This document shows positions 22,374 through 64,000 of a stretch of 64,000 nucleotides of DNA, piece after piece; the stretch's first letter is position 1, and every line of letters begins with the position of its first letter. Below the pieces are notes generated by a model that had not been told where the DNA came from, did no database searches, and was given only the letters and a program-made list of their open reading frames with translations. Made by a program: the position numbers and the translations under genes. The DNA is taken from assembly GCA_040390725.1 (NCBI GenBank), contig JAZJXT010000006.1, forward strand, positions 367-64,366. The letters run 5' to 3'. The DNA is from Patescibacteria group bacterium (lineage in GTDB: Bacteria > Patescibacteriota > Minisyncoccia > Phycocordibacterales > UBA9973).

Positions 22374-22526
22374 AAATAATTAAATTGGGATCTGCCCTGT
22401 TAATATCACGCTCTTTTTCTTTAACCCTTTAAAAACTAAAGAATTAAAGGAGAAAAGCGGATTAATCAAGACCGTATTCCCTTGCCTGCCATACTAGCAA
22501 ATTAGAAATAAATAGTCAAATATTTG

Positions 22527-22923
22527 TGGAACTGACGAGAATTGAACTCGTGTGCAAAAGGTTGTTGCAGAGAAATCGACATGCTTGGCTCATTTTTTTG
22601 TTTAAATTTTAAAATTCTTAAATGAGCAAAATATTTTAAAATCGAGTTCTAAGTTTTCGTGAAATATGCGAACAAATATTTCCTTATCCCGATAATATTA
22701 TGCCTCGTCTCATATATCGGAAGTCTATGAGGGAGACACCAGTTTGGCTTACGCGAAAGCTGGAGCGAAAGCAAAATCATTCATACCGAAGTATGGAGAA
22801 GCTTTTGCAAACGCCTTAGAAGTCAATTTTGCAATTAACATTTGAGCGAATTTTTTCGAGATTACGCTCATGCTCGGCATGCATCAATAGCAAAAGGCCT
22901 TTTGTCTATGCCTTGCAGTCCCC
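22527..22923 (-). ncRNA. ssrA: tmRNA (SsrA)
   Basis: Minus-strand 5' GGGGACUG pairs with 3' CAGUUCC + A (the acceptor stem has a G3-U wobble, the alanine identity element). T-arm acgag-TTCAATT-ctcgt. Internal tag-like reading frame ...gat ttt gct ttc gct cca gct ttc gcg TAA (..DFAFAPAFA*). Immediately adjacent to smpB. Confidence 0.7.
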
Positions 22924-43758: not shown

Positions 43759-45711
43759 TTATTCGTTATCCCCTGCCTCCATTTTCATTTTAGCTTTTGT
43801 CTTTGGACCTACGAGACCATCAGCTACGAGATCATGAGCCTTTTGCCATTTCTTTATTACAGAAATAGTCTTTGGACCAAGCTTTCCATCAACTACCAAA
43901 CCAAGATTAAGAAGTTGATTAAGAAGTTTTTGAAGTTCCATAACTGCATCACCTTTACTGCCATTCTTTAGAGTCATTGTGCCCAAATTAAATGGACCAT
44001 GAGCCTTTACGCCTTCGTTGTTTACGCAAAGATCGCCAGTAGAAGTGTTGTATTTATTTCCTCCGGAACATCCTGGAGACATTGTTGTCTCAGTTACTGC
44101 AGGAGTAGTAGGAGTCGCTGCTGTAACTGTAATAGTCACAGGAGTTTCACTCTGTGCTACTGTCGAAGTAGTCGAACCGGAAGGCGTAGGAGGTGTGCAA
44201 GTTGGGTAGTCAGTCGCGCCGTTTGAACAAATAGATGTACATGCTGGATAGTCAGTAGCTCCATTATCACAAACAAAATTATTACTGCTTGGTCGGCGAG
44301 CAACATCTACTGTGCCTGTTCCGGCAGCAGCAAAGTAAAAATCACTTGTATGGTCTGGAGTTGGAGATGCACCTACATTAGTTGAACCCCAAACACCAGC
44401 GCTTTTATATCCCCCATAAACCTTCATAGTGTCAGAGCTAGAAGCCCCTACCAATACCACCGGTAATGCTGAAAGTGATGAATCAATATTGAATAACTTC
44501 GTGATAATCAAAGCGCCTCCGAAAGTTTTCACTCCGCTACCGCTCAAAGAAAGATTATAGTAAGTACCAGAAGAAGCTACATTAGTAAATTTAACTGTTT
44601 GAGCTCCACCTGTGTAATTTACATTGTTACCTGTTGCAGTAGCATCAAGGTTAAATGTAGCAGATGTTCCGCCAAGATTCAAAGTAGTAGATGCTCCTTG
44701 TGTAAGAGTTCCAGAACCTGCGAGAGCAGTTCCGACTGTTAATGTGCCATTATTTGTATATGTTCCATCAACAGTCAAACTAGGGATACTAAGAGTTCCT
44801 GTTAAAGTTTTAGTTGAACCGGACAAAGTGTGCACACCTGAACTTGCAGTAAATGTGCCGGAATTTGCCAAGCTTCCTGCGATACCCACAGTAGCTGCAG
44901 CTGTTTCAGAATATGTTCCGCCGACAGTAACGTCATCACTAAATACAAGAGTAGCAGCCGCATTAACATTCATAGTTCCACTGTCAGTAACAGCGCCAGT
45001 GAAAGTCTTTGTTCCTGTGCCGGAAATTGTCAAAGTTCCTCCGCTAGCAACATTAGTAGTATTAGAAGCAGTAAATGTGTTGCCTGCCATAGTCAATGTA
45101 GCTCCATTAGCAACACTCAATGCGCCAGTAGCAGTAAGTGTATTTGCTCCAGCAGATAATGTGCCGGAATTTACAGCCAAAGTGCCTCCGACTGTAGTTG
45201 TACCAGACAAAGAAACTGTACCAGAACCACCAACTATAACATTGTTATATGTTGTATAAGTACCCATTGCTTGTGCACCTGCACCATTAAAAGTAAGAGT
45301 GCTACCTGTTCCGTCAAAAGTTCCACCAGCACCAAAGTTACCACCTACATTAATTGCACCTGCACTAGTTGTCAAAACAGCGCTTGACCCATTAAAAGTA
45401 ATATTACCACTTACTGTCAATGTTCCACCACTTACTGTCAATGTTCCACCACCAGCAGTATTATTTATAGTAATTGACGATGCGCCTGCAGAACCCGAGG
45501 CTAAAGTGACATTATCTCCTCCAACTATAGTAACTGCATCACCTTCAACTGGGACAATGCCTCCTACCCAAGTAGCCCCTGTATTCCAAGGACCTCCCCC
45601 TCCAGTAGAAGAGATTGCCGAGGCTTCAGCTTTGTTGGCTGAGAAACCAACAAGCATCAAAGCAAAAACAAAGAAAACAGAAACAAAACGAAATATTTTT
45701 TTATTTAACAT
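43759..45711 (-). CDS. large secreted Gly/Thr/Ser-rich (beta-helix-like repeats) surface protein with a C-terminal peptidoglycan-binding domain
   Basis: Signal peptide; repeats GGTLTVSGNITFNG etc.; C-terminal KGDAVMELQKLLN...DGKLGPKTISVIKKWQ. Confidence 0.55.
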   Translation of the reverse strand: MLNKKIFRFVSVFFVFALMLVGFSANKAEASAISSTGGGGPWNTGATWVGGIVPVEGDAVTIVGGDNVTLASGSAGASSITINNTAGGGTLTVSGGTLTVSGNITFNGSSAVLTTSAGAINVGGNFGAGGTFDGTGSTLTFNGAGAQAMGTYTTYNNVIVGGSGTVSLSGTTTVGGTLAVNSGTLSAGANTLTATGALSVANGATLTMAGNTFTASNTTNVASGGTLTISGTGTKTFTGAVTDSGTMNVNAAATLVFSDDVTVGGTYSETAAATVGIAGSLANSGTFTASSGVHTLSGSTKTLTGTLSIPSLTVDGTYTNNGTLTVGTALAGSGTLTQGASTTLNLGGTSATFNLDATATGNNVNYTGGAQTVKFTNVASSGTYYNLSLSGSGVKTFGGALIITKLFNIDSSLSALPVVLVGASSSDTMKVYGGYKSAGVWGSTNVGASPTPDHTSDFYFAAAGTGTVDVARRPSSNNFVCDNGATDYPACTSICSNGATDYPTCTPPTPSGSTTSTVAQSETPVTITVTAATPTTPAVTETTMSPGCSGGNKYNTSTGDLCVNNEGVKAHGPFNLGTMTLKNGSKGDAVMELQKLLNQLLNLGLVVDGKLGPKTISVIKKWQKAHDLVADGLVGPKTKAKMKMEAGDNE

Positions 45712-46211: not shown

Positions 46212-46709
46212 TTATTCCTGCACCAAAACAGTCGCTACGTTTTGGTATTTATCACAATCCACAAGAAGAGTTTTGGATTTCAAGTAAACATCAGGCAAAA
46301 CCACTATCTTGAAACTCCATGGCTTTATAGTAAATGTCGTCCCCACCTTTATTGTCCGAGTATTTGGAGACCTGTTATCCATCATAATACCAGTATTATC
46401 TTTATATGTAACGTTAAAAGGATGTGCCTGACATGTCTTATCAAGCTGAATTCTCCTGTCAGCATACTTTACTAAAGCGTTTGCGTATGACAAAGTTATA
46501 GCTGAACTTGTAACAGGACTAGGCTCAAGGTCTTGAACTGATTCCGGCTCAGTCCCTACCGTAGCTGTATTTTCAGCCGGATTTGTTACATCCGGAGCTA
46601 CCGCTTGCTTATTTTTAGACATAAATAATAAAACTAATACAATAACAACAACTACTCCTGCCCAAACCCACATAGATTTATTTTTTTCCATAAAATTTTT
46701 TACCACCAC
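46212..46709 (-). CDS. secreted/anchored hypothetical protein
   Basis: N-terminal TM/signal; ORF track. Confidence 0.35.
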   Translation of the reverse strand: MVVKNFMEKNKSMWVWAGVVVVIVLVLLFMSKNKQAVAPDVTNPAENTATVGTEPESVQDLEPSPVTSSAITLSYANALVKYADRRIQLDKTCQAHPFNVTYKDNTGIMMDNRSPNTRTIKVGTTFTIKPWSFKIVVLPDVYLKSKTLLVDCDKYQNVATVLVQE

Positions 46710-47736: not shown

Positions 47737-50700
47737 CTAGCTAGTTAGGCCAACAGAATTTGTTGGGTAATTATTCAAGTATAAAGTGTTGTTTGTTGTC
47801 TCATTTCCTGTTGCACCACCTGCTGTGTCAGTCCAGACAAATGTTGCAGCTGCACCAACAGAACTTGAGATAGAGCTCGAGTGAGCACCACCAGAGTTAG
47901 GAACAGCTGAAACTGGGACAAAGATCTTGAAGGTAATAGTTGTTCCGTGTGCAATAAGGTAACCACCGTTATTAAAGGTGATTGTACTATTACCACTAGA
48001 GAACGAACCAGCTGTTGTTTCAAGAACAGCACCTGAAGCATCTTTTACAAAAATACTTGTTGTAGAAGAAGAAACTCCAGTTCCAGATGTAGAATCTGCA
48101 CCATCAGCAAGAGTTGCGTCAGTTGTAGATACATGAATATCTAAGCTCTGTAGAGTGATGTCTCCTGCTTGATCAGCGCTAACTGTAACGTTCATAGCGT
48201 TTTCGTTACCAACAGCTAGGACACCACCAGCAGCAACTACTGCGACAACTGGCTTTGAACCAACAACTCTCATAGTAGGAGTTGAGACAGTGATAGTACC
48301 AGTGTCTGAACTCGCTCCTCCGATAGTGTAGTAAACCTTTGTCATAGTAAGTTGTGAAGTGCCGTTATCAGAAGTGTATGCACCGATACCAGCAGCACCG
48401 ACAGATCCATAAGAAATCATTACAGGGAATGTAGCACCAGAAGAACCATTTGGAACAGCAAGGTTAAGACCTGTGATGTCAAATGTGTTGCCAGTAGTGT
48501 TAACATTACCAGTTTGTCCTCCTACAGTGATAGCAGTGATAGGATCAGTTGCGCCACTTGTAGAGAATGTGATTTCAGTAATATTTGCATTTCCGTTTGA
48601 AGATACAAATTTGAATGAACCTGTAGTTGCATTACTTACTCCTGTAGCTCCCGCTGCAACATACTGAGAAGTAGTTGAACTTGAAGTAACCAATGTAGGT
48701 GTAGCGACAGTACCAGTAGCCATTGTTATTGTTTGACCAGTAACATCTGTAAGACTAGTATTGCCATTTGCAAAGATAGAAACATTTGAACTTGAACCGA
48801 TACCTTGTGGAGCAAGCTTAGTAAGTATTGTACCGTAGTTTGCACCTCCAAGATCAGCCATCAAATCAATTGTCTTTGTTGCACCTGGTGCAAGAGTAAA
48901 GTCAACTGAGAAAGTATCAGTACCAGTTGGAGCAATTGGATTTGAACCAGAACCTGAAGTTTCTGAAGTTCTCAATCCGTTTACATAAGTGATAGCTGTA
49001 GCTGTCTTACCAGCGACAGTGATAGCAGCACCTAATGCACAACCTCCAGTACCTGCTGTAGAAACAGTTGTAGTAAGTTGTGTTGAACTTGCAACTGCAG
49101 TTACTGTACCAACTAGGTCTACTGTAGGACAATCAACAGTGATCACATCACCAGCATTGAAGCTAGCAGAAGATGATACGTTGATAGCGTGACCAGCACC
49201 TGCTGTAAAGTCACTACCAGCAGCAACCAATGTAGGAGTAGCAAATGTTGTTGTAACTCTCAAGCTAGTAACACGAACAGATTCAGATGTACTCTGGTTC
49301 TGCATAGTGTAAGAGCCAAGTTTTACGTTTGCAGTATTTGCATTCATAACTTGATTACCATAGCTAGCGTTCTTTCCAACGTTAAGAGTACCAGTTTGAA
49401 TGTTCAAAGTGTTACCTGTAACGCTTGGGATAGCCAAGCCATTGTGTGAGTTCATACCTTCAGCACCAGTAGAACTTCCTACTAGGCTAGCGTGAAGAGT
49501 ACCAGCTGTGTAGTTGATACTTGTGCTGTTTCGGATATCTGCACGGATTTCCAAATAACTATCAACACCTGCAGGCACAATCATTTGTGAGCCTGGTGTC
49601 ATATCTATTTGAGTACCGGAAGTACCAGTTGCAGTTTGAGTACCAATTTGTGAACCATTAAAGTAAGCAGTAACGTTCTGAAGAGTTGTTGTACTTCCAG
49701 AAGAAACTGTTCCACTAATAGTTGGTGTGAAAGAAAGCGTGTTTACCTTCATATCTTCACCGTAAGCATGCAATTTGAACTTAGCGATAGCTACGTTTGT
49801 AGCACCACCAGTCACTTTAGTCATAGCTTGGAAAGTAGGGTCAATAACAGCTGTCATTGAACCTGCGTTTATAGTGATTGAAGAGTAAGTTGCGTTTGTT
49901 ACACCTCCGAATACAACGTTGATTCCGACTTGAGAGTCGTAAACCATCATATCAGAAGCTAATTGAACTGAAAGTTGAATAGTTCTTGCAGAACCTTTTA
50001 CGACATCTGCGCGAACATCCAAAGTGTGGTTACCAGTAGTAAGTTCAACTGGCATTGCAGACAAGTCAAAGGTTACATAATTTGAACCATTAACTGTTGT
50101 CATTGTACCTGTAGAACCTAGAGCAAGTCCGTCTTTGTATAGTTTTACATTCGCTAGAGCGTCAGTAGGAGCAGAACCGATAACTCGGAAGTTTGCAGCC
50201 TTGAGCCATAGAGAGTGTGTACCTACAACATTGATAGGAGCTGACCATACTGTGTAAGCAGTAGTACCAGGGTTAACTGTAGGGTTAACAGGTAGAGTAT
50301 TTGTAGTGAAGCTTACTGAAGCAGCATTTGATCCAGTAGCGACATACATAGTATTACCAACCAAGTTAACATTTGTAGCTGCACCGCCAGTAACTGTGAA
50401 AGAAGTCATATTTACGCCAAGACTGTAAGCAGTGTTACCGACATTAAGCACGTCAGCTCTTACGGAAATAGTTCTTGAACCACTAACCATAAGATTAAGA
50501 CTACTCATAGTAAGATCACCGTTATTGTTGAAAGAGTAACCATCTGTCAAACGTGTTACACCATCGTATAGGTAAACGTTTGTAAGAGTACTCTGATCAG
50601 AAATACCAGTTCTCTTTAACATAACAGAGTTAACTGTTCCAGTTCCTGTGAATGTAACGTGTAACAAGTCAGCAGTAGCTTGACCGGCAACGATTGTGCC

Positions 50701-51273
50701 AGCAGCTGGGTTGTCTGTTGCAAGCATTACAGTAACAGGACCAGTTTGAGAAGCAGTAGAACTTGCTGCGTAGCAAGCTCCGCCAGTTACAGGACTAAAT
50801 CCTGCAGCTGAAGTACAACCAGGTGGAAGGAATGTGTTTGCCATTACGCTAGCACATGACATGCCAGTTGTTGAACTGTATCCAGAAGCTGAAGTACAGC
50901 CTGCTGGGAAGTTACCTGATACTGAACCGTGAGCGACTAATGAAGCTCGTGACATTGGTCCGAATACTCCGTCAGCTGTAAGGCCGGCAGAAGCTTGGAA
51001 CATTTTCACTGCAGCCTTAGTTGCGTTTCCGAAGTATGTTGTTTCCATACCTGCAGAACCAGCACTAACACCGTCAACGTGGAAACCCTTTTCATTAAGC
51101 ATCTGTTGAAGACACATAACTTGAGAATTTCTCATTCCATATTTCAAAGTCATAGTGAAGCCAGTACAATTTGCTGCGTTGACTTCTGTTGCATTTACAG
51201 CAACAACACCAACGAACATAACTGCCGCCATCACAACTCCTGAAAGGAATTTTGATTTAAATAAATTACTCAT
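47737..51273 (-). CDS. giant (1178 aa) secreted Thr/Ser/Gly/Val-rich surface protein with an N-terminal peptidoglycan-binding domain
   Basis: Signal peptide, then CTGFTMTLKYGMRNSQVMCLQQMLNEKGF...ATKAAVKMFQASAGLTADGVFGP (PG_binding_1-like), followed by >1000 aa of low-complexity beta-rich sequence. Confidence 0.55.
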   Translation of the reverse strand: MSNLFKSKFLSGVVMAAVMFVGVVAVNATEVNAANCTGFTMTLKYGMRNSQVMCLQQMLNEKGFHVDGVSAGSAGMETTYFGNATKAAVKMFQASAGLTADGVFGPMSRASLVAHGSVSGNFPAGCTSASGYSSTTGMSCASVMANTFLPPGCTSAAGFSPVTGGACYAASSTASQTGPVTVMLATDNPAAGTIVAGQATADLLHVTFTGTGTVNSVMLKRTGISDQSTLTNVYLYDGVTRLTDGYSFNNNGDLTMSSLNLMVSGSRTISVRADVLNVGNTAYSLGVNMTSFTVTGGAATNVNLVGNTMYVATGSNAASVSFTTNTLPVNPTVNPGTTAYTVWSAPINVVGTHSLWLKAANFRVIGSAPTDALANVKLYKDGLALGSTGTMTTVNGSNYVTFDLSAMPVELTTGNHTLDVRADVVKGSARTIQLSVQLASDMMVYDSQVGINVVFGGVTNATYSSITINAGSMTAVIDPTFQAMTKVTGGATNVAIAKFKLHAYGEDMKVNTLSFTPTISGTVSSGSTTTLQNVTAYFNGSQIGTQTATGTSGTQIDMTPGSQMIVPAGVDSYLEIRADIRNSTSINYTAGTLHASLVGSSTGAEGMNSHNGLAIPSVTGNTLNIQTGTLNVGKNASYGNQVMNANTANVKLGSYTMQNQSTSESVRVTSLRVTTTFATPTLVAAGSDFTAGAGHAINVSSSASFNAGDVITVDCPTVDLVGTVTAVASSTQLTTTVSTAGTGGCALGAAITVAGKTATAITYVNGLRTSETSGSGSNPIAPTGTDTFSVDFTLAPGATKTIDLMADLGGANYGTILTKLAPQGIGSSSNVSIFANGNTSLTDVTGQTITMATGTVATPTLVTSSSTTSQYVAAGATGVSNATTGSFKFVSSNGNANITEITFSTSGATDPITAITVGGQTGNVNTTGNTFDITGLNLAVPNGSSGATFPVMISYGSVGAAGIGAYTSDNGTSQLTMTKVYYTIGGASSDTGTITVSTPTMRVVGSKPVVAVVAAGGVLAVGNENAMNVTVSADQAGDITLQSLDIHVSTTDATLADGADSTSGTGVSSSTTSIFVKDASGAVLETTAGSFSSGNSTITFNNGGYLIAHGTTITFKIFVPVSAVPNSGGAHSSSISSSVGAAATFVWTDTAGGATGNETTNNTLYLNNYPTNSVGLTS

Positions 51274-55295: not shown

Positions 55296-56333
55296 ATGCA
55301 GCAAAAAAAAGCAAAAAAAGAAGACAAGACAAGCAATAATGATTTGGAAGAAACACTAAAATCAATCCAAACAAAATTCGGCGAAGGCTCTATTATTAAA
55401 ATGGGTGACACTCCAAAAGTAGACTTGAATGTCATACCGACAGGTTCCCTTGGTTTGGATATGGCTCTAGGCGTCGGTGGAATACCACGTGGCAGAATCA
55501 TCGAAGTTTTCGGACCGGAATCATCCGGTAAAACTACCCTAGCTTCACACATCGTCGCTGAAGCGCAAAAACTCGGAGGTATCTGCGCGTACATCGATGC
55601 CGAACACGCAATGGATCCGGAATATACCAAAAAACTCGGAGTAAAAATAAATGACCTTCTCGTTTCCCAGCCTGACACCGGCGAGCAAGCATTAGAAATA
55701 GTTGAGAGCCTCGTGCGCTCCGGAAAAATTGATGTTATCGTCATAGACTCCGTCGCAGCATTGACTCCAAAAGACGAAATCGAGGGCGATATGGGCGCGT
55801 ATCACGTGGGCAAGCAGGCCCGCCTGATGTCCCAAGCTCTCCGTAAACTTACCGCAATAGTAGCCAAATCAAAAACCGTCGTCATTTTCATAAACCAAAT
55901 CCGTATGCAAATAGGCGTGATGTTCGGCAATCCAGAAACGACACCGGGAGGCAAGGCTTTGAAATTCTACACTTCTATCCGCCTCGACATCCGCAAAATA
56001 GCGCAAATTAAAAAAGGCGAAGACGTCGTCGGCTCCCGCACTCGCGTGAAAGTCGTAAAAAATAAAGTCGCCGCTCCTTTCAAGCAAACAGAATTCGACA
56101 TCATTTACAATGAAGGTATTTCCAAAGAAGGAGAAATAATAGCATTGGGTGAGAAATTCAAAATCGTAGAAAAATCCGGCAATTCATATTTCTATATGCC
56201 AGCCGGTGAAGGCAAGGAAAAAGTAAAGCTCGGCGTAGGCTACGACAACACTCGCACATTCTTAAAAGAAAATTCCAAAATCGCTGAACAAATCTTGAAA
56301 GAAATCAGAAAGAAGTTTGCAGAGGAGGTTTAA
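55296..56333 (+). CDS. recA: recombinase RecA
   Basis: [18 protein letters not shown] and the conserved L1/L2 regions. Confidence 0.9.
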
Positions 56334-56519: not shown

Positions 56520-56768
56520 ATGTCCAAAGAATTCTCTTATAAAATAGAATACGAGGTTGATAAGAAATCCGGTCAAGTAACGGCGACTATTCCTGAGCTT
56601 AATCACATTTCTTCTTTTGGTGATTCATTTGCCGAAGCGGAAGCCAATGTTCGTGAAGCATCATTGGGGTATTTGGAGTTGCTAGTTAAAAAACAAAAAA
56701 GAATCCCTGCTCCTGCATTTCACACTGATGGAACGTATTTAAAACTTTTTATTCCAAAGTTTGCTTAA
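56520..56768 (+). CDS. hicB: HicB-family antitoxin
   Basis: UPF0150/HicB-like fold signature (YKIEYEVDKKSGQVTATIPELNHISSFGDSFAEAEANVREA); overlaps hicA by 8 nt. Confidence 0.55.
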   Translation: MSKEFSYKIEYEVDKKSGQVTATIPELNHISSFGDSFAEAEANVREASLGYLELLVKKQKRIPAPAFHTDGTYLKLFIPKFA

Positions 56769-56994
56769 AAAAATGAGCAAATTAAATCCTTTATCAGCTA
56801 GAAAGGTTATTCAGAAACTCAAAAAAATAGGTTTTATTAAAACGCATCAGCGCGGAAGTCATTTGTATTTAGAAAACGGTGATAAGGTCGTAACAATTCC
56901 CGTTCACGGTTCAAAGGATATTCCCGTAGGTACTCTTTACAACATTGTCGTTAAACAAGCCGAACTTTCCATAAAAGAATTTCAGAATTTATAA
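56761..56994 (+). CDS. hicA: HicA-family mRNA interferase toxin
   Basis: KLKKIGFIKTHQRGSHLYLENGDKVVTIPVHGSKDIPVGTLYNIVKQA matches the HicA/YcfA pattern. Confidence 0.6.
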   Translation: MLKKMSKLNPLSARKVIQKLKKIGFIKTHQRGSHLYLENGDKVVTIPVHGSKDIPVGTLYNIVVKQAELSIKEFQNL

Positions 56995-57090: not shown

Positions 57091-57672
57091 ATGGCAACAT
57101 TAGAATACAGTGAAATACGCGGAGGAAAAATCATCTTACATGATGACGAGCCTTGTGAAGTTATCGACTCGCACGTCGCTCGCACCCAACAACGCAAACC
57201 TCAAAACCAGGTCAAGCTTAAAAGTCTTATTTCCGGCAAGGTCTTCCCTGCTACTTATCACGTTTCCGACAAAGCTGACGAAGCGGAAATCGAAAAACGT
57301 GAAGTGAAATTCCTTTATCACAACAAGGGCGAATATTGGTTCTGTGATCCTACTGATCCAAAAAACAGATTTAAATTAAACGAAGCGTTGCTCGGCAACA
57401 CTGTAAAATTCTTGAAAGATAATGAAAACGTCACCGCGCTAGTCTGGACGACAGAAGACGATGAGGAAAAAACTATCGGACTCAAGCTCCCTATCAAAAT
57501 GCAATTCAAAGTAAAAGAAGCTCCTCCTGCTGTCCGCGGAGACACTTCCAAGGGTGGCAATAAATTCATCGTCCTTGAAAATGGCTCCTCTATCACAGTG
57601 CCTATGTTTATAAACGAAGGTGACACTGTCATCATAAATACCGAAACCGGCGACTACGTCGAACGAGCCTAA
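57091..57672 (+). CDS. efp: elongation factor P (start moved to the internal ATG at 57091)
   Basis: Three-domain EF-P pattern, including the KPGKG-like loop region. Confidence 0.8.
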   Translation: MATLEYSEIRGGKIILHDDEPCEVIDSHVARTQQRKPQNQVKLKSLISGKVFPATYHVSDKADEAEIEKREVKFLYHNKGEYWFCDPTDPKNRFKLNEALLGNTVKFLKDNENVTALVWTTEDDEEKTIGLKLPIKMQFKVKEAPPAVRGDTSKGGNKFIVLENGSSITVPMFINEGDTVIINTETGDYVERA

Positions 57673-57731: not shown

Positions 57732-58232
57732 CTATTTAATCCGCCGATGAAGCGACTTTTGGAGATTAGCTTCCTCTGCTTCATGCCTTGCTTTTTCAAT
57801 GGCAATATTTAAATGTAAAATCTTACCATGATCATTTTTATATTGGATTTTTGTAAACTCCTTTAATTTTTCACAGTAAACAGAATTATTTATGTATTTA
57901 GGCAACATATTAATCCCGATGCTAAAAACCATAAGGCGTTCACGTCTATTAAAGTTTTTAATTTTAATAAAAGTATCGAGCATTTTAATTAAAACATTTT
58001 CTTCAGAAGACACCATAGTATAATGGTATTTTCCGTTCTGAAAAAATTCAATCAAAGGACCAGATACGCCCTTTTTATCTTCTGCCATGGTTTGGAATTT
58101 CGAAAATATTTCTTGGATTTTTTCTTCGGGTATTGGCACCTCTGTTTTTTTATCAAGATACTCTCTTAATATATTAACCAAACGCCTTTTTCCTGAAATT
58201 ACTATTTCGTATTGAAATAATATTTTTCGCAC
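57732..58232 (-). CDS. hypothetical protein
   Basis: ORF track. Confidence 0.3.
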   Translation of the reverse strand: MRKILFQYEIVISGKRRLVNILREYLDKKTEVPIPEEKIQEIFSKFQTMAEDKKGVSGPLIEFFQNGKYHYTMVSSEENVLIKMLDTFIKIKNFNRRERLMVFSIGINMLPKYINNSVYCEKLKEFTKIQYKNDHGKILHLNIAIEKARHEAEEANLQKSLHRRIK

Positions 58233-58365
58233 TTCTAGTACTTTCTTTTTTGTTAAAGCTACAAATAAATCAACCTATTTTATCCGAAAAAGCAATAGCA
58301 CTATTGACTATTTAATAAAAAAATGATAATCTTTTTATTCAGCCAAGGGGGCTGAGTTTTGTTTT

Positions 58366-59931
58366 TTGACAAAATTAAATAAAAATTTTCATCACCAAAA
58401 TTTCGTAATCATGAAATCAATTTTTTCTTTCGCATGGGCTTTAGCTCTCCTTTTGTTGGTAGGAAAAACCAACGCACAAATTTCAAATTTTATTGTTAAC
58501 CAGGACACAATTTGTGCTGGAGACACTGTTTTTGTTACCAACCTGTCAACAGGTTCAAACCTGAAAAGTAACTGGTACAGCGCTAACGGCTCTCCTCAGA
58601 CATGGGAAGGAATAACAATCCCTATGGGTGTTACCTACTGGAATCCCGGTACGTATCAAATTGAACTGATCGTGGAAGACACGGTGTCGCATATTCAAAG
58701 TACGCCGTTTATTGTTACTATTTATGTGTATCCAATACCGCAGACATTTACTACCACGCCAAGTGGAAACATTTACCAAAATTGTAACGGCAATCCCGTG
58801 ACAGTTACAGCCAACACCGCCGGAGGAGTAAATTACCTTTGGAGACACAATGGTAATACTGTTGACACAAATGCTACGGCAAACCTAAGTGGTACAGGAG
58901 CGTATTTTGTGTACGCTACTAACATTTACGGTTGTCGAAATAGCCAAGGTTGGTATGTCTATGTGAATCCAAATCCAGCACTAAACATAAGCCTGGGAGT
59001 TAATGGAAACAATAATGACACTGTTTCTATTTGCAACAACCCGCTAAATACAAACTATGCGTATGTAAACTGGAGCAGTCCGATAAGTATTCTTCCTTCG
59101 TTCCAATGGAATGATGGATCAAATGGTAATAACTTAGCTGTTACCCAATCCGGAAACTACTGGGCCATACTAACAGACTTAAATACTGGATGTAGTGATA
59201 CGGACAGTGTTTATGTTTATTTACATCAACTGCCTGTACCGGTAATTACATCACCTATGCTAGAGTTTTGCGAAGGAGCAGGCACAGTCTTACTCGTAGC
59301 CACTCACTATCCTTCCTATTCATGGAGCAATAGTGCAAATACTCAAAGCACTTATGTGAATTGGGGAGGTGTCTTTACTGTAACAGTTACCGATACCTTT
59401 GGTTGCACAGGAACAGCACTGAGTGTACAAACTATTGTATGGCCAAACCCAGTTGCCGAAATAGAAACAATTGATTGTGAAATGGCTGCAGGGCTGATCA
59501 CACTTGGACCGGGAGATTCCATTCAATGGTCATTAAACGGAATACCTATTCCCCAATCCAACAGTCAATTCTTGTTGGCAACTGGGACAGGTTTCTATAC
59601 AGTGACAGTAACAAATTCACACGGTTGCACAGGCACATCATTGCCCATGCCTATGAATTGCACTGAAACTGGCGTAGACTTACTTGCCCAAATGAAAGGC
59701 ATAAATGTTTATCCAAACCCAGTTGTAAATCAACTGACGGTTAAATTTGCAAACCAAAATACCAAATACAAAGTCCAAATCGTGGACATGGTTGGTAAAA
59801 GTTTGGCAGAGGCTGAAGGAACCGATGAAGTAATCATTCCGCGAGGAAACATTACTCCGGGTTATTATATTGTCAAAATCCGTGACAGTGAAAATAGCCA
59901 AGAAAAAACTGCACAGATTATCGTGCAGTAA
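58366..59931 (+). CDS. secreted protein with a Bacteroidota-type T9SS C-terminal sorting domain
   Basis: Signal peptide ending ...KTNAQ. C-terminus VYPNPVVNQLTVKF...KVQIVDMVGKSL...GYYIVKIRD...IIVQ (Por_Secre_tail pattern). Noticeably higher GC than the flanks. Confidence 0.55.
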   Translation: MTKLNKNFHHQNFVIMKSIFSFAWALALLLLVGKTNAQISNFIVNQDTICAGDTVFVTNLSTGSNLKSNWYSANGSPQTWEGITIPMGVTYWNPGTYQIELIVEDTVSHIQSTPFIVTIYVYPIPQTFTTTPSGNIYQNCNGNPVTVTANTAGGVNYLWRHNGNTVDTNATANLSGTGAYFVYATNIYGCRNSQGWYVYVNPNPALNISLGVNGNNNDTVSICNNPLNTNYAYVNWSSPISILPSFQWNDGSNGNNLAVTQSGNYWAILTDLNTGCSDTDSVYVYLHQLPVPVITSPMLEFCEGAGTVLLVATHYPSYSWSNSANTQSTYVNWGGVFTVTVTDTFGCTGTALSVQTIVWPNPVAEIETIDCEMAAGLITLGPGDSIQWSLNGIPIPQSNSQFLLATGTGFYTVTVTNSHGCTGTSLPMPMNCTETGVDLLAQMKGINVYPNPVVNQLTVKFANQNTKYKVQIVDMVGKSLAEAEGTDEVIIPRGNITPGYYIVKIRDSENSQEKTAQIIVQ

Positions 59932-60049
59932 AATTAAATGGTGTTAATACACCCCACCCGCTTAATACAAGCGGGTGTTTTTTTATCTAAAATCAAAATA
60001 ATACCCAATAAAATATGAATATTTCAACCCTTGACTTATTGCTATAAAT

Positions 60050-61399
60050 ATGCTAGACTTGATAGATAGGCGGAGTAACCGCTATTATTTGTACCTTGTA
60101 ATCAACAATTCAATATATCTTATGAAGAATTCAGTATTTTCCGTATGGGCTACTGCCCTTTTCTTTTTGTTGGCTTTTAATAAAACCAATGCGCAATTTT
60201 CCTGCATGTCTAATATCCATGTCAGTACTGGAGTCAGCTTTGTCGTTGACTGTAGCAATCAAAAAGTTGTTACTTTCACTACAGACAGCTTGTCCAGAGC
60301 TTACTCATGGATGATAGGCAGTACTCCATTGGGAGTTGCTATCTCCATGACGGTGACTATCACTACCCCGGGCGATTACAACATCACAGCAACCGACACT
60401 ATGAATAGTTGGTGCTATGACGTTGTTCAGATTCACGCACTGCCACGTCCTGTGACAGTGGTGAATGTGAATGTTCCTGGATCAACGGTTATTGGGAACA
60501 CTACCTTTGTCTGTTCAAACCCAAACGGCTATTCCCTGAATGGAAACACCACCGGTGTCAGCTATTACTGGGATAACGGACCAGGTCCATTGATCAGGCA
60601 TGTTTTCCAAGGAGGAGTTTACATCTTTACAGGTGTAGATAGCTACGGATGCACAACATCCGATACCGTAAACTTGGTTATCTGGCAAAGCCCGACTCCT
60701 GCAATAATTGGAAACGTTCCAGTGTGCTCTGGGTCGAGCTTGGTGCTGTCGGTTGATAGTCCTACCATCTACTCTAGTGTTAATTGGAGTGGTGTCGGCA
60801 CATCAGGCAACAGTCCCACTGCATCGGTGAACACAACAATCAATTACGCGAGTTATATCGTGGATATGACTGCAACTGATGCAAATGGATGCTCTGCAAC
60901 AACCACTGCCCTTGTGACCGTAAAGCCTACTCCGCTGACACCTACGGTATTTAGTACCAGCCCTGTGGCATGCAAAATGTATGACATACACGGTGGTAAT
61001 TTATACCAATGGATGATGGGTTCAGGAGCAGGTTCGATAATTCCGGGAGCAACGAGTTCTGTTTATTATCCTACCAGCCCAAATTATTACTGGGTGGTAG
61101 AAACAGATATCGTTTCTGGGTGTGGTAGCGCATCTCTGCCATTATGGTCAGATTGCAACATTGCGTCTGGTGTGGATGACGAACTGGATAAAAAAGATAA
61201 ACTGAAAATTTCTTCAGAAGGAATAAGCATAGAATTTGCTGATGCCGAAATACACACTGTTAAAGTGATTGACGGTATTGGGCAAGTTGTAGCAACTGAA
61301 ACTTCCTCAACTGAAATTTTGTTTCGGAACATCAAACCAGGAATTTATTTCCTGCGTGTTGATGAGAAGCCAGCGGTAAAAATCGCTGTACGACAATAA
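60050..61399 (+). CDS. second secreted protein with a T9SS-type C-terminal sorting domain
   Basis: Signal peptide ...KTNAQ. C-terminus ISIEFADAEIHTVKVIDGIGQVV...GIYFLRVDEKPAVKIAVRQ. GC-richer. Confidence 0.5.
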   Translation: MLDLIDRRSNRYYLYLVINNSIYLMKNSVFSVWATALFFLLAFNKTNAQFSCMSNIHVSTGVSFVVDCSNQKVVTFTTDSLSRAYSWMIGSTPLGVAISMTVTITTPGDYNITATDTMNSWCYDVVQIHALPRPVTVVNVNVPGSTVIGNTTFVCSNPNGYSLNGNTTGVSYYWDNGPGPLIRHVFQGGVYIFTGVDSYGCTTSDTVNLVIWQSPTPAIIGNVPVCSGSSLVLSVDSPTIYSSVNWSGVGTSGNSPTASVNTTINYASYIVDMTATDANGCSATTTALVTVKPTPLTPTVFSTSPVACKMYDIHGGNLYQWMMGSGAGSIIPGATSSVYYPTSPNYYWVVETDIVSGCGSASLPLWSDCNIASGVDDELDKKDKLKISSEGISIEFADAEIHTVKVIDGIGQVVATETSSTEILFRNIKPGIYFLRVDEKPAVKIAVRQ

Positions 61400-61546
61400 A
61401 ATGGTGTATTACACCGACCCATATTGAACAACAATATGGGTTATTTTTTTGCCTAAATACTAAAAAATACAAAAATTTGACATAAAAGTATCCGTTAATA
61501 TATACTGAAAATATAAAATTTAATTATAATTAACAGAAATAATATT

Positions 61547-62575
61547 ATGGCAAAAACAAAAGAAAAGTTTATTTATACATACATCTGGCTCGACGGCTAC
61601 AAGCCGGAGCCGAACTTAAGGGGCAAAGACAAAATCCTCGAAGGTATTAAAACATTAAAAGAACTCCCAGGCTGGTCATTTGACGGTAGCTCAACACAGC
61701 AAGCAAAAGGTCATTTCTCGGACTGCTTACTCAATCCGGTAAAAATGATTCCTGACCCAGCACGAGAAAGAAGCTTTTTGGTTTTCTGTGAAGTTTTAAA
61801 TCCGGATGGCACTCCGCATATTTCAAATACTCGTGCACAACTCGCTCCATATGATTTCAAAGGAAGCTGGTTTGGAATGGAACAAGAATATGTATTTATA
61901 AAAAATGGCCGACCGATAGGTTTCCCCATAGATGCAAAAAAGTTTCCGAAACCTCAGGGCGAATATTATTGCGGAGTCGGTGCAGAAAATATTTCCGGCC
62001 GAGAATTAATGGAGGAGCACACTTTGATGTGCATCGAAGCAGGCATTCCTCTGACTGGCACAAATGCCGAAGTTCTCTTAGGTCAATGGGAATTCCAGCT
62101 TTTTGGACAAGATGGCGCACTGGATACTGCTGACCTCCTTTGGCTCACTCGCTATCTTTTAGTACGCACTGCGGAATCTTACGGCGTATCAGTTTCCTTT
62201 CACCCAAAACCGCTCACCAAAGGCGACTGGAACGGTTCCGGACTTCACACAAACTTTTCTACAAATAAAATGCGTGGCGCTGGCGGTAAAGAATTATTCC
62301 AAAGAATTTACAAAGCATTTGAAAAAAATGCAAAAATGCATATTGATCATTATGGATCAGACAATCACCTACGCCTCACGGGAAAACATGAAACACAATC
62401 TATCCACACATTCTCGACTGGTGTTTCCGACCGTGGAGCATCTATCAGAATTCCGCTTTCGACCGACAAAGAAATGCGTGGTTATCTCGAAGACCGACGC
62501 CCAGCATCAAACGGCGACCCATACAAAATCTTGCTCGCAATTTGCAAAACATTAAAAGAAGCAAAAGCGGATTAA
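61547..62575 (+). CDS. glnII: glutamine synthetase type II (eukaryote-like GSII)
   Basis: ~342 aa; N-terminal YIWLDG and the catalytic-domain motifs NGSGLHTNFST ... are typical of GSII rather than GSI or GSIII. Confidence 0.65.
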   Translation: MAKTKEKFIYTYIWLDGYKPEPNLRGKDKILEGIKTLKELPGWSFDGSSTQQAKGHFSDCLLNPVKMIPDPARERSFLVFCEVLNPDGTPHISNTRAQLAPYDFKGSWFGMEQEYVFIKNGRPIGFPIDAKKFPKPQGEYYCGVGAENISGRELMEEHTLMCIEAGIPLTGTNAEVLLGQWEFQLFGQDGALDTADLLWLTRYLLVRTAESYGVSVSFHPKPLTKGDWNGSGLHTNFSTNKMRGAGGKELFQRIYKAFEKNAKMHIDHYGSDNHLRLTGKHETQSIHTFSTGVSDRGASIRIPLSTDKEMRGYLEDRRPASNGDPYKILLAICKTLKEAKAD

Positions 62576-62602
62576 AAGAATTTTCAAATCGCCAGGCAAG
62601 AC

Positions 62603-63088
62603 CTAGCGATTTTTATTTATTATTGATTTTTTGTTTTGGGGGAAATTTTCTAAAATTTCACTTATTTTTTTATTTAACCCTGGATGTATAAAATTAGGAG
62701 CTATTTCATTTAAAGGTATTAAAACAAAATCACGTTCTGTTAAAAGTGGGTGCGGAATTTCGAGAATATCATTTTTGAAAACAAGGTCATCGTAAAAAAG
62801 AATATCAATATCTATCTCGCGCGGGCCCCAATAAAAAGTTTCTTTTCTGCCGACTTTTTTTTCTATTTCTTTTACGAAAGTTAAAAGCTCCAGTGGGGTA
62901 AGATTTGTTTCCGCTTCTATCGCAGTATTTAGAAAATTATTTTGCTCGGTAAAACCCACTGCCTTACTCTCATACACCGACGCGTATTTTAAAACTTTTA
63001 TTTTCTCGGACAAAAATCTATACGCTTTTTTAATATTCTCTTCTCTATCTCCCGTATTTGAGCCCAATGCCAAATATATTTTATGCAT
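62603..63088 (-). CDS. folK: 2-amino-4-hydroxy-6-hydroxymethyldihydropteridine pyrophosphokinase
   Basis: IYLALGSNTGDR and the HPPK length. Confidence 0.75.
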   Translation of the reverse strand: MHKIYLALGSNTGDREENIKKAYRFLSEKIKVLKYASVYESKAVGFTEQNNFLNTAIEAETNLTPLELLTFVKEIEKKVGRKETFYWGPREIDIDILFYDDLVFKNDILEIPHPLLTERDFVLIPLNEIAPNFIHPGLNKKISEILENFPQNKKSIINKNR

Positions 63089-63089
63089 A

Positions 63090-63443
63090 TTATCTTGATT
63101 TTTCTATCTCCACACCGACGGATTCTATACCAGGGAATTTATTTGGTTTCTCTACTCGCACTTGCACTTTTTGTGCCATTTTTTCTGCCAAACAAATATC
63201 GGCAATAGTATCAGCCAAAGTTTCAATCAATACAAATTCTTTTTGCGCCACTAATTGGGTTATTTTTTCTTTAAAAATTACATAATTTACAGTATCATTT
63301 ATATCTTCACTTTTTACAGATTTACTAATGTCCGCCCACACAGCTATATTTAATAAAAGGCTTTGTGTAGCATTTCGCTCTATGGTATGTTCGCCCACAT
63401 TTGCAGTCACTATAAAATTTTTAATAAATATTTTTCCAATCAT
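63090..63443 (-). CDS. folB: dihydroneopterin aldolase
   Basis: Size and the conserved IFIKNFIVTANVGEHTIER pattern. Confidence 0.65.
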   Translation of the reverse strand: MIGKIFIKNFIVTANVGEHTIERNATQSLLLNIAVWADISKSVKSEDINDTVNYVIFKEKITQLVAQKEFVLIETLADTIADICLAEKMAQKVQVRVEKPNKFPGIESVGVEIEKSR

Positions 63444-63478
63444 ACTTTTATGCTAACATTTTTTGCATTATTTTTCTA

Positions 63479-64000
63479 TTATTTTAATTCGTCTAGCAAT
63501 ACTAAGAATTTTTTATTTTCCAATACATCGTGTGTGCGCACTATATTTGCGCCATTTAATACAGCAAAAGCTGTCTCTGCCAATCCCGCCTCGAGCCTTT
63601 CACTCGGCCCCGGTACTTCTTTTAAATTCAATTTCTCTTGCAAAACCTTGCCTAAATGGCTCTTCCTAGAAACACCCACCAGTAAAGGCATCCCCCATTT
63701 GGTGAACTTTTTAAATTCCCTTATTATGGTTAAATTATGCTCGACTGATTTACCGAAACCAATCCCCGGGTCTAAAATAAACTGCTCTTTTTTTACGCCA
63801 TTTTTTAACCCGAATTTTATTTGCTCCGCAAAAAATTTATTTATCTCTGAAATTACATTTTTATATTTTATCTCACCCTTTTGCATCGTACGTGGTTCAC
63901 CTTTTATATGATAAATAATAATCGGCACTTTATATTTCGCCACAACTTTTGCCATAGCCTTGTCATATGTAAAACCGCCTAAACTGTTTATTATATTCGC
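63479..64000 (-). CDS. folP: dihydropteroate synthase (N-terminus beyond the window end)
   Basis: LLVGVSRKS and the C-terminal DHPS region. The ORF is open to the window edge. Confidence 0.7.
   Translation of the reverse strand, partial: ANIINSLGGFTYDKAMAKVVAKYKVPIIIYHIKGEPRTMQKGEIKYKNVISEINKFFAEQIKFGLKNGVKKEQFILDPGIGFGKSVEHNLTIIREFKKFTKWGMPLLVGVSRKSHLGKVLQEKLNLKEVPGPSERLEAGLAETAFAVLNGANIVRTHDVLENKKFLVLLDELK

What the first reader, a model, noticed from the sequence alone, without database searches (positions are those of the whole stretch)
58366..61399. Two GC-richer genes encoding proteins with Bacteroidota-type T9SS C-terminal sorting domains in a genome that otherwise looks CPR-like
Both proteins have signal peptides ending ...KTNAQ (a Bacteroidota-style cleavage context) and C-termini matching the Por/T9SS sorting-domain pattern (YPNPV...KVQIVDMVGK...GYYIVKI). 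Their GC content is visibly higher than the flanks. No T9SS machinery is evident in the window, which suggests horizontal acquisition from a Bacteroidota donor, possibly a host or co-resident organism. It is unclear whether the proteins are exported functionally.
Basis: partly seen in the sequence, partly recalled or inferred. Interest (0 to 1): 0.55.

Follow-up and report, generated by a model that had tools for sequence, protein, structure and literature searches.

The report
Bacteroidota-type secretion-tagged adhesins in a CPR bacterium
Two neighbouring genes in a tiny Nomurabacteria-like (CPR) genome encode exported, bead-on-a-string adhesin-like proteins that still carry the C-terminal tag and signal-peptide style of Bacteroidota type IX secretion cargo; they are real, old, domesticated imports shared by related CPR genomes, in a phylum not known to have that secretion system.

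Summary
Two intact genes lie at 58411-59931 (P1, 506 aa) and 60122-61399 (P2, 425 aa). Both have signal peptides ending KTNA|Q.

- **CTD:** P1 passes the curated cut-offs of TIGR04183 and PF18962. P2 is just below them but keeps the 7-strand CTD fold in the model.
- **Genome:** It is Patescibacteria (Paceibacteria/Nomurabacteria-like). RecA is 84-93% identical to Patescibacteria MAGs, and hyp-ftsK-recA-efp synteny holds in about 80 loci.
- **Chimerism is unlikely:** The junctions recur in a separate Logan assembly. A relative has efp directly next to the same glutamine synthetase. Homologues P0004 and P0124 sit right after efp in two other Nomurabacteria-type contigs.
- **More cases:** Three further T9SS-CTD proteins occur near recA in the three closest relatives.
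- **GC is not diagnostic:** The rise is mostly in codon position 2 and equals that of recA.
- **Donor signal:** Other homologues are Bacteroidota at 35% identity or less. Seven of eight CPR proteins follow the Bacteroidetes A|Q rule.

Best reading: an old transfer from Bacteroidota, now domesticated. The proteins are Sec-exported Ig-chain adhesins, and the CTD is kept without a T9SS. No T9SS genes are in the window. The whole genome could not be checked. This is a moderately interesting new variant.

The parts
58411..59931 (+). P1 gene (506 aa). An alternative TTG start at 58366 gives 521 aa. NCBI MES2023828.1 is called from an internal Met (435 aa) and so lacks the signal peptide.
58411..58476 (+). 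P1 Sec/SPase I signal peptide, MKSIFSFAWALALLLLVGKTNA|Q, with Gln at +1.
   Evidence: Read directly. Crude predictor. pLDDT is below 50 for residues 1-26.
58480..58746 (+). P1 N-terminal PKD-like domain (about aa 24-112). Its best matches are the CPR homologues P0124 and P0004.
   Evidence: PF00801 24.9 bits versus cut-off 23.5. Domain blast.
58747..59685 (+). P1 chain of Cys-containing Ig-like repeats (CHU_C-associated Ig / SprB-like, with a '...GC..' motif). All-beta in the model.
   Evidence: (internal 55-nt repeat D1)
59701..59928 (+). P1 T9SS type A C-terminal domain (aa 431-506). It contains YPNP, D..GK, GYYIVKI and a ...IIVQ end, and forms 7 beta strands with pLDDT 92-96.
   Evidence: (8glk_D CTD, E=0.0014)
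58304..58357 (+). P1 5' region. By eye it holds TTGACT(58304-58309)-15 nt-GATAAT, followed by a hairpin plus T-run (58337-58357) ahead of the start codon.
   Evidence: Sequence. Hairpin listed. The promoter was read by eye and is not in the tool's list.
59955..59987 (+). Intrinsic terminator-like hairpin plus T-run after P1.
60031..60059 (+). Sigma-70-like promoter TTGACT-17-TAGACT (with TG before the -10), upstream of P2.
60122..61399 (+). P2 gene (425 aa; NCBI MES2023829.1 'hypothetical protein V4439_04040'). It is a distant paralogue of P1 (27% identity over 282 aa).
60122..60193 (+). P2 signal peptide, MKNSVFSVWATALFFLLAFNKTNA|Q.
61196..61396 (+). P2 degenerate CTD (aa 359-425). It has lost YPNP but keeps D..G, PGIYFLRV and a ...AVRQ end. 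It forms 7 strands in the model.
   Evidence: (sub-threshold)
61416..61452 (+). Intrinsic terminator-like hairpin plus T-run after P2.
57732..58232 (-). Lineage-specific 166-aa ORF between efp and P1 (GC 0.30). It has no family match and no homologue in 80 related loci. It may or may not belong to the same variable insert.
57091..57672 (+). efp, the conserved native left flank. It is 85% identical to the efp that precedes P0004 in L082.
61547..62575 (+). Glutamine synthetase (type II-like), the native right flank. In L033 its 79%-identical orthologue lies directly after efp, which is the 'empty site'.

Best explanation
P1 and P2 descend from a Bacteroidota type IX secretion cargo gene. That gene encoded a signal peptide, a PKD-like domain, a string of Cys-containing Ig-like repeats and a type A C-terminal domain.

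**History (inferred).** An ancestor of a Nomurabacteria-like subclade of Paceibacteria acquired the gene. It settled in the variable slot just downstream of efp. It has since been inherited, duplicated and rapidly diverged, giving P1 and P2 here, and P0004 and P0124 in related contigs.

**Current state (shown).** The genes are domesticated. Each is a separate unit with a sigma-70-like promoter and its own intrinsic terminator. Codon usage is largely that of the host genome.

**Mechanism (inferred).**
- Patescibacteria are not known to have a type IX system. By my own background knowledge they also lack an outer membrane.
- Export therefore needs only Sec and signal peptidase I, which would cleave after ...NA.
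- The mature proteins would be extracellular, rod-like Ig-domain chains that act as adhesins towards a partner cell or surface.
- The CTD would not be used as a T9SS export signal. It would stay on the protein as an uncleaved terminal beta-sandwich.
- The CTD is fully preserved in P1, P0004 and P0124, and partly degenerate in P2.
For: **Reality and host.**
- RecA is 84-93% identical to Patescibacteria MAGs only.
- The hyp272-ftsK-recA-efp order is conserved in about 80 loci.
- The same gene order appears in a separate Logan assembly at 100% identity over 6.5 kb.
- L033 has efp next to the same glutamine synthetase, which shows both flanks are native neighbours.

**Shared within the clade.**
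- P0004 (Nomurabacteria GCA_026395995.1) and P0124 each lie immediately after efp. Their efp is 84-85% identical to the window's.
- The N-terminal domain and CTD of P1, and the CTD of P2, match these CPR proteins better than any Bacteroidota hit.

**Bacteroidota origin.**
- The named homologues are almost all Bacteroidota, at 25-35% identity.
- A|Q signal peptides are rare in other Paceibacteria ORFs and common in Bacteroidota-like loci (PMC5837995).
- Leu CTG is used 16 times out of 53, against 4% in the background.

**Domestication.**
- Promoter and terminators are present.
- Codon frequencies correlate with the background at r=0.80, as the native surface proteins do (0.82).
- The deviation (z -4.9 and -5.6) is the same size as for recA (-5.5) and efp (-4.4), and correlated with theirs (r=0.63).
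- GC3 of P0004 and P0124 equals that of their neighbours.

**Fold.**
- The AF2 model has pLDDT 83, is all-beta, and has a 7-strand CTD.
- The best PDB matches are the Ig-chain grappling-hook protein GhpA of Aureispira, a Bacteroidota species (E 2e-20).

**CTD maintained.** The CTD is 59% identical between P0004 and P0124, against 54% overall.

**No T9SS genes in the window**.
Against: - The rest of the genome could not be inspected, so absence of T9SS or CTD-processing genes rests on the literature (PMC11285876), not on a test of this genome.
- If the CTD has no job, its good preservation in P1, P0004 and P0124 is not obviously expected. The same holds for the presence of at least three unrelated CTD proteins in the closest relatives.
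- P1 and P2 have no wall anchor. They lack a PG_binding domain, LPXTG motif or TM segment, unlike the native surface proteins. How an adhesin would stay on the cell is therefore unexplained.
- Adhesin function is inferred from fold only.
- The closest RecA relatives (93%) lack P-family genes at this spot, while an 79% relative has one. Loss or intra-CPR transfer must therefore be invoked.
- No formal phylogeny was made.
Confidence: 0.62

Rival explanations
1. The CTD is still a working signal or ligand in this CPR clade. Either these bacteria have some CTD-recognising or CTD-processing machinery of their own, or they live on T9SS-bearing Bacteroidota. In the second case the retained CTDs would engage host T9SS surface components (PorV or the attachment complex), or would mimic host cargo.
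For: - TIGR04183-positive proteins lie within 10 kb of recA (or on efp contigs) in related contigs. They represent at least four different protein lineages: the P family, L003_264, L079_165 and L020_394.
- The three RecA-closest relatives all have one.
- The CTD is conserved as well as the rest of the protein.
- The key Gly after beta3 and the G.Y motif are retained even in P2.
- Bacteroidota are reported as relatively frequent gene donors to Patescibacteria, possibly reflecting host-symbiont links (PMC12455944).
Against: - T9SS genes are reported absent outside FCB phyla (PMC11285876).
- None is in the 64-kb window.
- In known systems CTDs are recognised in the periplasm, which an external protein cannot reach.
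- P2 has lost the YPNP motif and falls below the family cut-offs.
Confidence: 0.18
2. The genes are decaying, functionless remnants of a transfer. They are neither expressed nor useful, and are on the way to loss.
For: - P2 is highly diverged. It has only 2 remote database hits, and its CTD is below threshold and lacks the YPNP motif.
- The closest relatives L079 and L003 lack P-family genes at this position.
Against: - Both reading frames are intact at 506 and 425 aa.
- The models are confidently folded (pLDDT 83 and 80.5).
- Promoter-like and terminator signals surround each gene.
- Homologues are kept intact in two other contigs and are 54% identical to each other.
- These are streamlined genomes, where dead genes are not expected to persist (my own background knowledge).
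Confidence: 0.1
3. Assembly or binning artefact: a piece of Bacteroidota DNA was wrongly joined into a CPR contig.
For: - The Bacteroidota-style signal peptides and CTD.
- The slightly raised GC and the CTG codon excess.
Against: - It would need two exact mis-joins between genes that are neighbours in a related genome (efp and glnA in L033).
- The same order appears in a Logan assembly. It may derive from the same reads.
- Homologues follow efp in two other independently assembled CPR contigs from other samples.
- No Bacteroidota homologue exceeds 35% identity.
- Codon usage is mostly host-like.
Confidence: 0.02
4. There was no transfer. The terminal beta-sandwich and Ig repeats are an old, generic fold native to Patescibacteria, and they only resemble T9SS CTDs.
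For: - Ig-like beta-sandwiches are ubiquitous.
- Sequence identity to any Bacteroidota protein is low.
Against: - P1, P0004, P0124 and three further CPR proteins pass the curated TIGR04183 cut-off.
- The CTD HMM hits only 3 of 80 related loci.
- Homologues are overwhelmingly Bacteroidota.
- The A|Q signal peptides are atypical for Paceibacteria.
Confidence: 0.05

Closest known systems
T9SS type A CTD cargo proteins of Bacteroidota (TIGR04183 / PF18962 Por_Secre_tail), e.g. multi-Ig 'gliding motility-associated' and SprB-repeat/CHU_C-type adhesins
   Same: The overall plan is the same: a Sec signal peptide with +1 Gln, a PKD-like domain, tandem Cys-containing Ig-like repeats, and a 70-80-aa 7-strand CTD at the very C-terminus with YPNP, D..G, G.Y and a basic/hydrophobic end.
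   Different: The host is a Patescibacteria genome, a phylum in which T9SS genes are reported absent (PMC11285876). None is present in the window. The CTD therefore cannot work in the known way. Identity to any Bacteroidota protein is 35% or less, and P2 is below the family cut-off.
GhpA grappling-hook protein of Aureispira sp. CCB-QB (PDB 9flp, 9flw, 9fly; a T9SS-linked prey-catching fibre)
   Same: It is the best structural match (Foldseek E 2e-20 to 1e-13, 18-22% identity). Both are extended chains of the same kind of Ig-like domains from Bacteroidota (bioRxiv 10.1101/2024.01.29.577165).
   Different: GhpA is 5,898 aa and forms heptameric hooks anchored in an outer-membrane base (as summarised in 10.1101/2025.08.19.671072). 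P1 and P2 are 425-506 aa. There is no evidence of oligomeric hooks or of base proteins. The match may simply reflect the shared repeat fold.
Host-to-symbiont and inter-phylum gene transfer into Patescibacteria (e.g. Bacteroidota-to-Paceibacteria transfers reported in PMC12455944)
   Same: A Paceibacteria recipient, a Bacteroidota-type donor, mostly old transfers, and integration with host-like composition.
   Different: The cargo here is a secretion-system-specific substrate whose cognate machinery is missing in the recipient. It recurs as several lineages in one CPR subclade. I found no paper describing this.
Native Paceibacteria surface proteins with PG_binding_1 anchors (window 41885-43597, 43759-45711, 47737-51273)
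   Same: They are large, Thr/Ser/Gly/Asn-rich, signal-peptide-bearing extracellular proteins with high GC2.
   Different: The native ones carry a peptidoglycan-binding domain, A|S or A|A cleavage sites and no CTD. P1 and P2 have a CTD, A|Q sites and no recognisable wall anchor.

Membership tests
T9SS type A CTD-containing protein (TIGR04183 / PF18962) | The C-terminal domain scores above the curated profile cut-off. | tested here: met
   P1 scores 36.8 bits on TIGR04183 (cut-off 23) and 38.9 bits on PF18962 (cut-off 27). P0004, P0124, L003_264, L079_165 and L020_394 also pass.
T9SS type A CTD-containing protein (TIGR04183 / PF18962) | The same cut-off, applied to P2. | tested here: not met
   P2 scores 21.2 bits (cut-off 23) and 20.1 bits (cut-off 27), and the YPNP motif is absent. 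The fold and the nearest-neighbour CTDs still indicate descent from a CTD.
T9SS type A CTD-containing protein (TIGR04183 / PF18962) | A compact 7-strand Ig-like beta-sandwich at the extreme C-terminus. | tested here: met
   AF2 gives strands 431-505 in P1 (pLDDT 92-96) and 359-424 in P2 (pLDDT about 79-92). The fold definition comes from PMC11285876. The CTD alone was not superposed on a solved CTD.
Functional T9SS cargo | An N-terminal Sec signal peptide. | tested here: met
   An n-region Lys, a hydrophobic core and an ..NA|Q site were read directly and picked up by a crude predictor. No dedicated signal-peptide program was available.
Functional T9SS cargo | The organism encodes the T9SS translocon and attachment machinery (SprA/Sov, PorV, PorU, PorZ, GldK/L/M/N). 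| tested here: not met
   None is found among the ORFs of the 64-kb window. The rest of the genome could not be fetched. The literature reports T9SS genes absent outside FCB phyla (PMC11285876).
Functional T9SS cargo | The CTD is removed by PorU, and the cargo is released or linked to A-LPS. | not testable with these tools
   This needs proteomics or biochemistry.
Bacteroidetes Q-rule SPase I substrates | Gln at position +1 after the signal peptide. | tested here: met
   P1, P2, P0124, L003_264, L079_165, L079_309 and L020_394 have A|Q, and P0004 has A|L. The background is 3 of 206 in other Paceibacteria ORFs, against 21 of 72 in Bacteroidota-like loci. The rule is described in PMC5837995.
Bacteroidetes Q-rule SPase I substrates | A glutaminyl cyclase in the genome to form pyroglutamate. 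| not tested
   None was noticed among the window ORFs. The whole genome was unavailable.
PKD / CHU_C-type Ig-repeat adhesins | PKD and Ig-like repeat domains detectable by profile and by fold. | tested here: met
   In P1, PF00801 scores 24.9 bits against a cut-off of 23.5. Ig_7 and BiPBP_C are sub-threshold in both proteins. The fold is an all-beta Ig chain whose best match is GhpA.
Mobile genomic island | An integrase or transposase, a tRNA target, or flanking direct repeats. | tested here: not met
   There is no tRNA in the window other than the distant tmRNA. There are no flanking repeats and no integrase-like ORF between efp and glnA. No relative was found in viral contigs.

The most novel reading that the evidence does not exclude
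This Nomurabacteria-like subclade lives attached to T9SS-bearing Bacteroidota and repeatedly captures host cargo genes. The CTDs are kept because they do something. They might dock the epibiont's secreted Ig-chain adhesins onto CTD-binding components of the host's T9SS or attachment complex, or they might be handled by an undescribed CTD-recognising system in a bacterium without an outer membrane. Either way, CTD-bearing genes would be a genomic marker that predicts the host phylum for a CPR lineage whose host is unknown.
Probability: 0.12. Interest if true: 0.85.

Novelty: new variant of a known kind. Interest (0 to 1): 0.52.

Why it matters
T9SS C-terminal domains are treated as a hallmark of Bacteroidota/FCB bacteria that own the type IX machinery. 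Here they occur intact and maintained, in several unrelated proteins, in a subclade of ultra-small Patescibacteria. That phylum is not known to have the machinery.

This has two consequences:
- It shows that a secretion tag can outlive its secretion system. That raises the question of what the domain does on its own.
- Together with the Bacteroidetes-style A|Q signal peptides, it gives a concrete, testable pointer to Bacteroidota as gene donor, and possibly host, for a Nomurabacteria lineage. Hosts of most Paceibacteria are unknown (my own background knowledge).

There is also a practical point. Automatic annotation already labels P1 'T9SS type A sorting domain-containing protein', but from a truncated start that hides its signal peptide. 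It leaves P2 as 'hypothetical'.

Tried and rejected
**Searches that led nowhere.**
1. A metagenome scan with the P1+P0004 alignment found nothing.
2. A second metagenome scan, with the CTD-region alignment, gave only 29 distant hits at 25-37% identity. None has efp or CPR context.
3. Viral contigs: the large alignment was unusable, and the CTD alignment found no relative. There is no sign of a phage vector.
4. I tried to walk beyond the window on the 130-kb NCBI contig through folB and glnA. Only the 7.1-kb Logan contig is indexed, so the rest of the genome could not be screened for T9SS genes.
5. Literature searches for T9SS or CTD in Patescibacteria/CPR found nothing relevant.

**Ideas tested and dropped.**
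6. GC as evidence of foreign origin was rejected. The rise is mainly in codon position 2 and matches recA, glnA and the native surface proteins.
7. Shine-Dalgarno presence as a test of adaptation is uninformative. Only 4 of 49 genes show even a weak 4-nt SD-like match.
8. Flanking repeats or mobile-element marks: none.
9. tblastn of the P family against the 80 related loci found nothing. Only a CTD HMM built here revealed the extra CTD proteins.
10. The 165-aa ORF at 46212-46709 sits where L079 has a CTD protein. It is not a CTD protein.
11. Rfam found no family for the conserved 5' leader of P0004/P0124.
12. GhpA-like 'grappling hook' function was considered. It is not adopted, because the match is explained by the shared repeat fold and the sizes differ more than ten-fold.


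Full report
**What is there.**

The window has two adjacent plus-strand ORFs, 58366-59931 and 60050-61399. The biologically sensible starts are ATG 58411 (P1, 506 aa) and ATG 60122 (P2, 425 aa). Each then opens with a classical signal peptide:
- P1: MKSIFSFAWALALLLLVGKTNA|QIS
- P2: MKNSVFSVWATALFFLLAFNKTNA|QFS

These starts match Logan's call for P1 and NCBI's call for P2. NCBI's own P1 record (MES2023828.1) begins at an internal Met (435 aa) and so lacks the signal peptide.

Profile results:
- P1 passes the curated cut-offs of TIGR04183 (36.8 bits, cut-off 23) and PF18962 (38.9 bits, cut-off 27). It also just passes PKD.
- P2 falls just short (21.2 and 20.1 bits) and has lost the YPNP motif.

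P1 and P2 are distant paralogues, 27% identical over 282 residues.

AlphaFold models are confident, with mean pLDDT 83 and 80.5. Both show an all-beta string of Ig-like domains that ends in a 7-strand domain:
- P1 residues 431-505, pLDDT 92-96
- P2 residues 359-424, pLDDT about 79-92

That is the architecture described for T9SS CTDs (PMC11285876). By sequence, the P1 CTD also hits the CTD chain in PDB 8glk (E 0.0014).

**Whose genome.**

RecA (55296-56333) is 84-93% identical to RecA of MAGs labelled Nomurabacteria, Paceibacterota or Patescibacteria, and to nothing else among the best 80. The order hyp272-ftsK-recA-efp is conserved in almost all of those loci.

The window also carries features typical of this group:
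- large surface proteins with PG_binding_1 domains
- a T4SS coupling-protein-like ATPase

No ORF in the window matches a T9SS component. The 'CPR-like' context is therefore confirmed.

**Not a chimera.**

- A Logan assembly of run SRR26324628 gives a 7.1-kb contig with efp-hyp166-P1-P2-glnA-folK-folB-folP. It is 100% identical to the window over 6.5 kb. It may come from the same reads, so on its own it only excludes an assembler-specific error.
- In the related locus L033, efp is followed directly by the orthologous glutamine synthetase (79% identity). The two flanks of the P1/P2 insert are therefore natural neighbours.
- Homologues occur at the same place in independently assembled CPR contigs from other samples. 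P0004 (718 aa, Nomurabacteria GCA_026395995.1) lies between efp and rpsR-ssb-rpsF. P0124 (717 aa) lies in recA-efp-P0124. The efp of both is 84-85% identical to the window's, as high as in any relative.

**A clade feature, not a one-off.**

Among all fetched homologues, the N-terminal PKD-like domain and the CTD of P1 match P0004 and P0124 best. The CTD of P2 does too. These four proteins therefore form one CPR family.

I built a CTD HMM here and ran it on six-frame ORFs of the 80 related loci. It found three more proteins, and all pass TIGR04183:
- L003:5247-6041 (264 aa), again directly after efp
- L079:1917-2414 (165 aa)
- L020:1006-2190 (394 aa), between recA and efp

These are exactly the three loci with the highest RecA identity to the window (93, 93 and 91%). 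Their CTDs are no closer to the P family than to Bacteroidota CTDs. At least four distinct CTD-protein lineages therefore exist in this subclade.

The slot downstream of efp is variable:
- a 384-aa unrelated ORF in L079
- a CTD protein in L003, L082 and L113
- hyp166+P1+P2 in the window

**Where the genes came from.**

- P1 has more than 200 database relatives. The named ones are Flavobacteriales, Chitinophagales, Saprospiraceae, Bacteroidia and similar, plus one Kapabacteria. All are 25-35% identical.
- P2 has almost no detectable relatives outside the family.
- Seven of the eight CPR proteins discussed have Gln at +1 of the signal-peptide cleavage site. This is the 'Q-rule', described as specific to Bacteroidetes (PMC5837995).
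- A crude signal-peptide count gave +1 Gln in 8 of 211 Paceibacteria ORFs, and five of those eight are the proteins in question. In the Bacteroidota-like metagenome loci the count was 21 of 72.
- The native surface proteins of the window cleave at A|S or A|A.
- T9SS genes are reported absent outside the FCB phyla (PMC11285876). Bacteroidota have been reported as comparatively frequent donors to Patescibacteria (PMC12455944).

All of this supports transfer from Bacteroidota to CPR.

**How old, and how integrated.**

P1 is 0.413 and P2 is 0.443, against a gene mean of 0.370. This matches recA (0.441), glnA (0.433) and the native surface proteins (0.42). It lies mostly in codon position 2, that is, in the Thr/Ser/Gly/Asn-rich composition.

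Synonymous codon usage of P1+P2 correlates with the window background at r=0.80, against 0.82 for the native surface proteins. The deviation (z -4.9 and -5.6) is no larger than that of recA (-5.5) or efp (-4.4), and it points the same way (r=0.63). The one residual oddity is an excess of Leu CTG, 16 of 53 codons against 4%. P0004 and P0124 have the GC3 of their neighbours.

Expression signals:
- Each gene ends in its own intrinsic terminator.
- P2 has a TTGACT-17-TAGACT promoter.
- P1 has a TTGACT...GATAAT pair read by eye.
- The genome essentially does not use Shine-Dalgarno sequences, so that test is uninformative.
- There are no repeats, integrase or tRNA marking a mobile element, and no phage relatives.

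The transfer is therefore old and the genes are domesticated.

The surface-protein genes evolve far faster than the housekeeping neighbours. P1 versus P0004 is about 31-36% identical, where efp is 85%.

**How it most likely works.**

Shown:
- intact genes
- Sec-type signal peptides
- Ig-chain fold
- a preserved CTD fold
- no T9SS genes in the window

Inferred: in a cell of a phylum without T9SS, Sec export plus signal peptidase I is enough to place these proteins outside the cell. That Patescibacteria also lack an outer membrane is my own background knowledge; a preprint describes their T4SS as being of the monoderm type (10.1101/2025.01.22.634366). The proteins would then act as extended adhesin-like rods, with the CTD remaining as a terminal beta-sandwich.

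The best structural match is the Ig-chain of the T9SS-linked grappling-hook protein GhpA of the predatory Bacteroidota genus Aureispira (E 2e-20). I read this as a shared repeat fold, not as evidence for hooks.

Two observations are not fully explained by 'tag without function':
- The CTD is as conserved as the rest of the protein between P0004 and P0124 (59% versus 54%).
- Several unrelated CTD proteins have accumulated in the same subclade.

This keeps alive the rival that the CTD has a role, for example in contact with a T9SS-bearing host. P1 and P2 also lack any recognisable wall anchor, unlike the native PG_binding proteins.

**Novelty.**

NCBI's pipeline already names P1 and P0004 'T9SS type A sorting domain-containing protein' in Patescibacteria records. 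Full-text searches found no paper that discusses T9SS CTDs in CPR/Patescibacteria. I rate it as a new variant of a known kind: T9SS-type cargo maintained in a lineage that should lack the system. Interest is moderate, mainly as a handle on host or donor identity and on what a CTD does without a T9SS.

**Limits.**
- The rest of the genome could not be retrieved.
- No formal phylogeny was built.
- No dedicated signal-peptide predictor was available.
- There are no expression data.

Noticed in passing
L082:676-905 and L113:1879-2090 (upstream of P0004 / P0124): The roughly 210-230-nt 5' leader between a TTGACT promoter and the start codon is 78% identical at DNA level, with long invariant blocks such as GGCAATCGTTTGGTYACCGCGAAYATCGGGCCGGCTTAAAACAGTAC. 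The proteins are only 54% identical. There is no Rfam match and no copy in the window or other loci. It may be a structured regulatory leader.
   Followed up: partly
window 58337-58357: A GC-rich hairpin plus T-run (terminator-like) sits between the putative P1 promoter and the P1 start codon. It may be an attenuator.
   Followed up: no
L079:2435-3364 (-): A 309-aa protein with an A|Q signal peptide lies next to the 165-aa CTD protein. Its N-terminus gives a sub-threshold match (41 bits, cut-off 60) to NF053851, the Bdellovibrio 'mosaic adhesive trimer' fibre family.
   Followed up: no
window 58411-59931 versus NCBI MES2023828.1: The public annotation of P1 starts at an internal Met (435 aa) and so omits the signal peptide and most of the PKD-like domain. 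P2 is annotated only as hypothetical.
   Followed up: yes
window, all gene starts: Only 4 of 49 genes have even a weak 4-nt Shine-Dalgarno-like match. Many start codons lie 5-15 nt after a TAnAAT-like box, which suggests widespread leaderless or SD-independent initiation.
   Followed up: partly
window 58411-61399: Leu codon CTG is used 16 times out of 53 in P1+P2, against about 4% in the rest of the window. It is not enriched in P0004 or P0124. This may be a residual donor signature.
   Followed up: partly
window 56520-56994: A HicB/HicA-like toxin-antitoxin pair is inserted between recA and efp. At this position it is absent from the related loci; hicA-like hits occur elsewhere only in L017 and L022.
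   Followed up: no
window 61547-63955 and beyond: A type II-like glutamine synthetase is followed by folK-folB-folP. Only L033 among 80 related loci has this GS near efp, and none shows the fol genes within 10 kb of recA. The region right of efp is a variable part of these genomes.
   Followed up: partly
window 22526-22922 (-): A tmRNA with an unusually long predicted tag peptide (AKLTSKAFAKASPYFGMNDFAFAPAFA).
   Followed up: no
window 5669-5702 (-): An Rfam DUF805b RNA motif above the gathering score (39.5 bits, cut-off 35.6).
   Followed up: no
window 36000-38774 (-): A 924-aa protein with T4SS coupling-protein signatures (TrwB_AAD_bind, TraG-D_C). This fits the monoderm-type T4SS described for Patescibacteria (10.1101/2025.01.22.634366).
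   Followed up: no
window 1-183 (-): The 5' end of a 23S rRNA gene runs off the left edge of the window.
   Followed up: no
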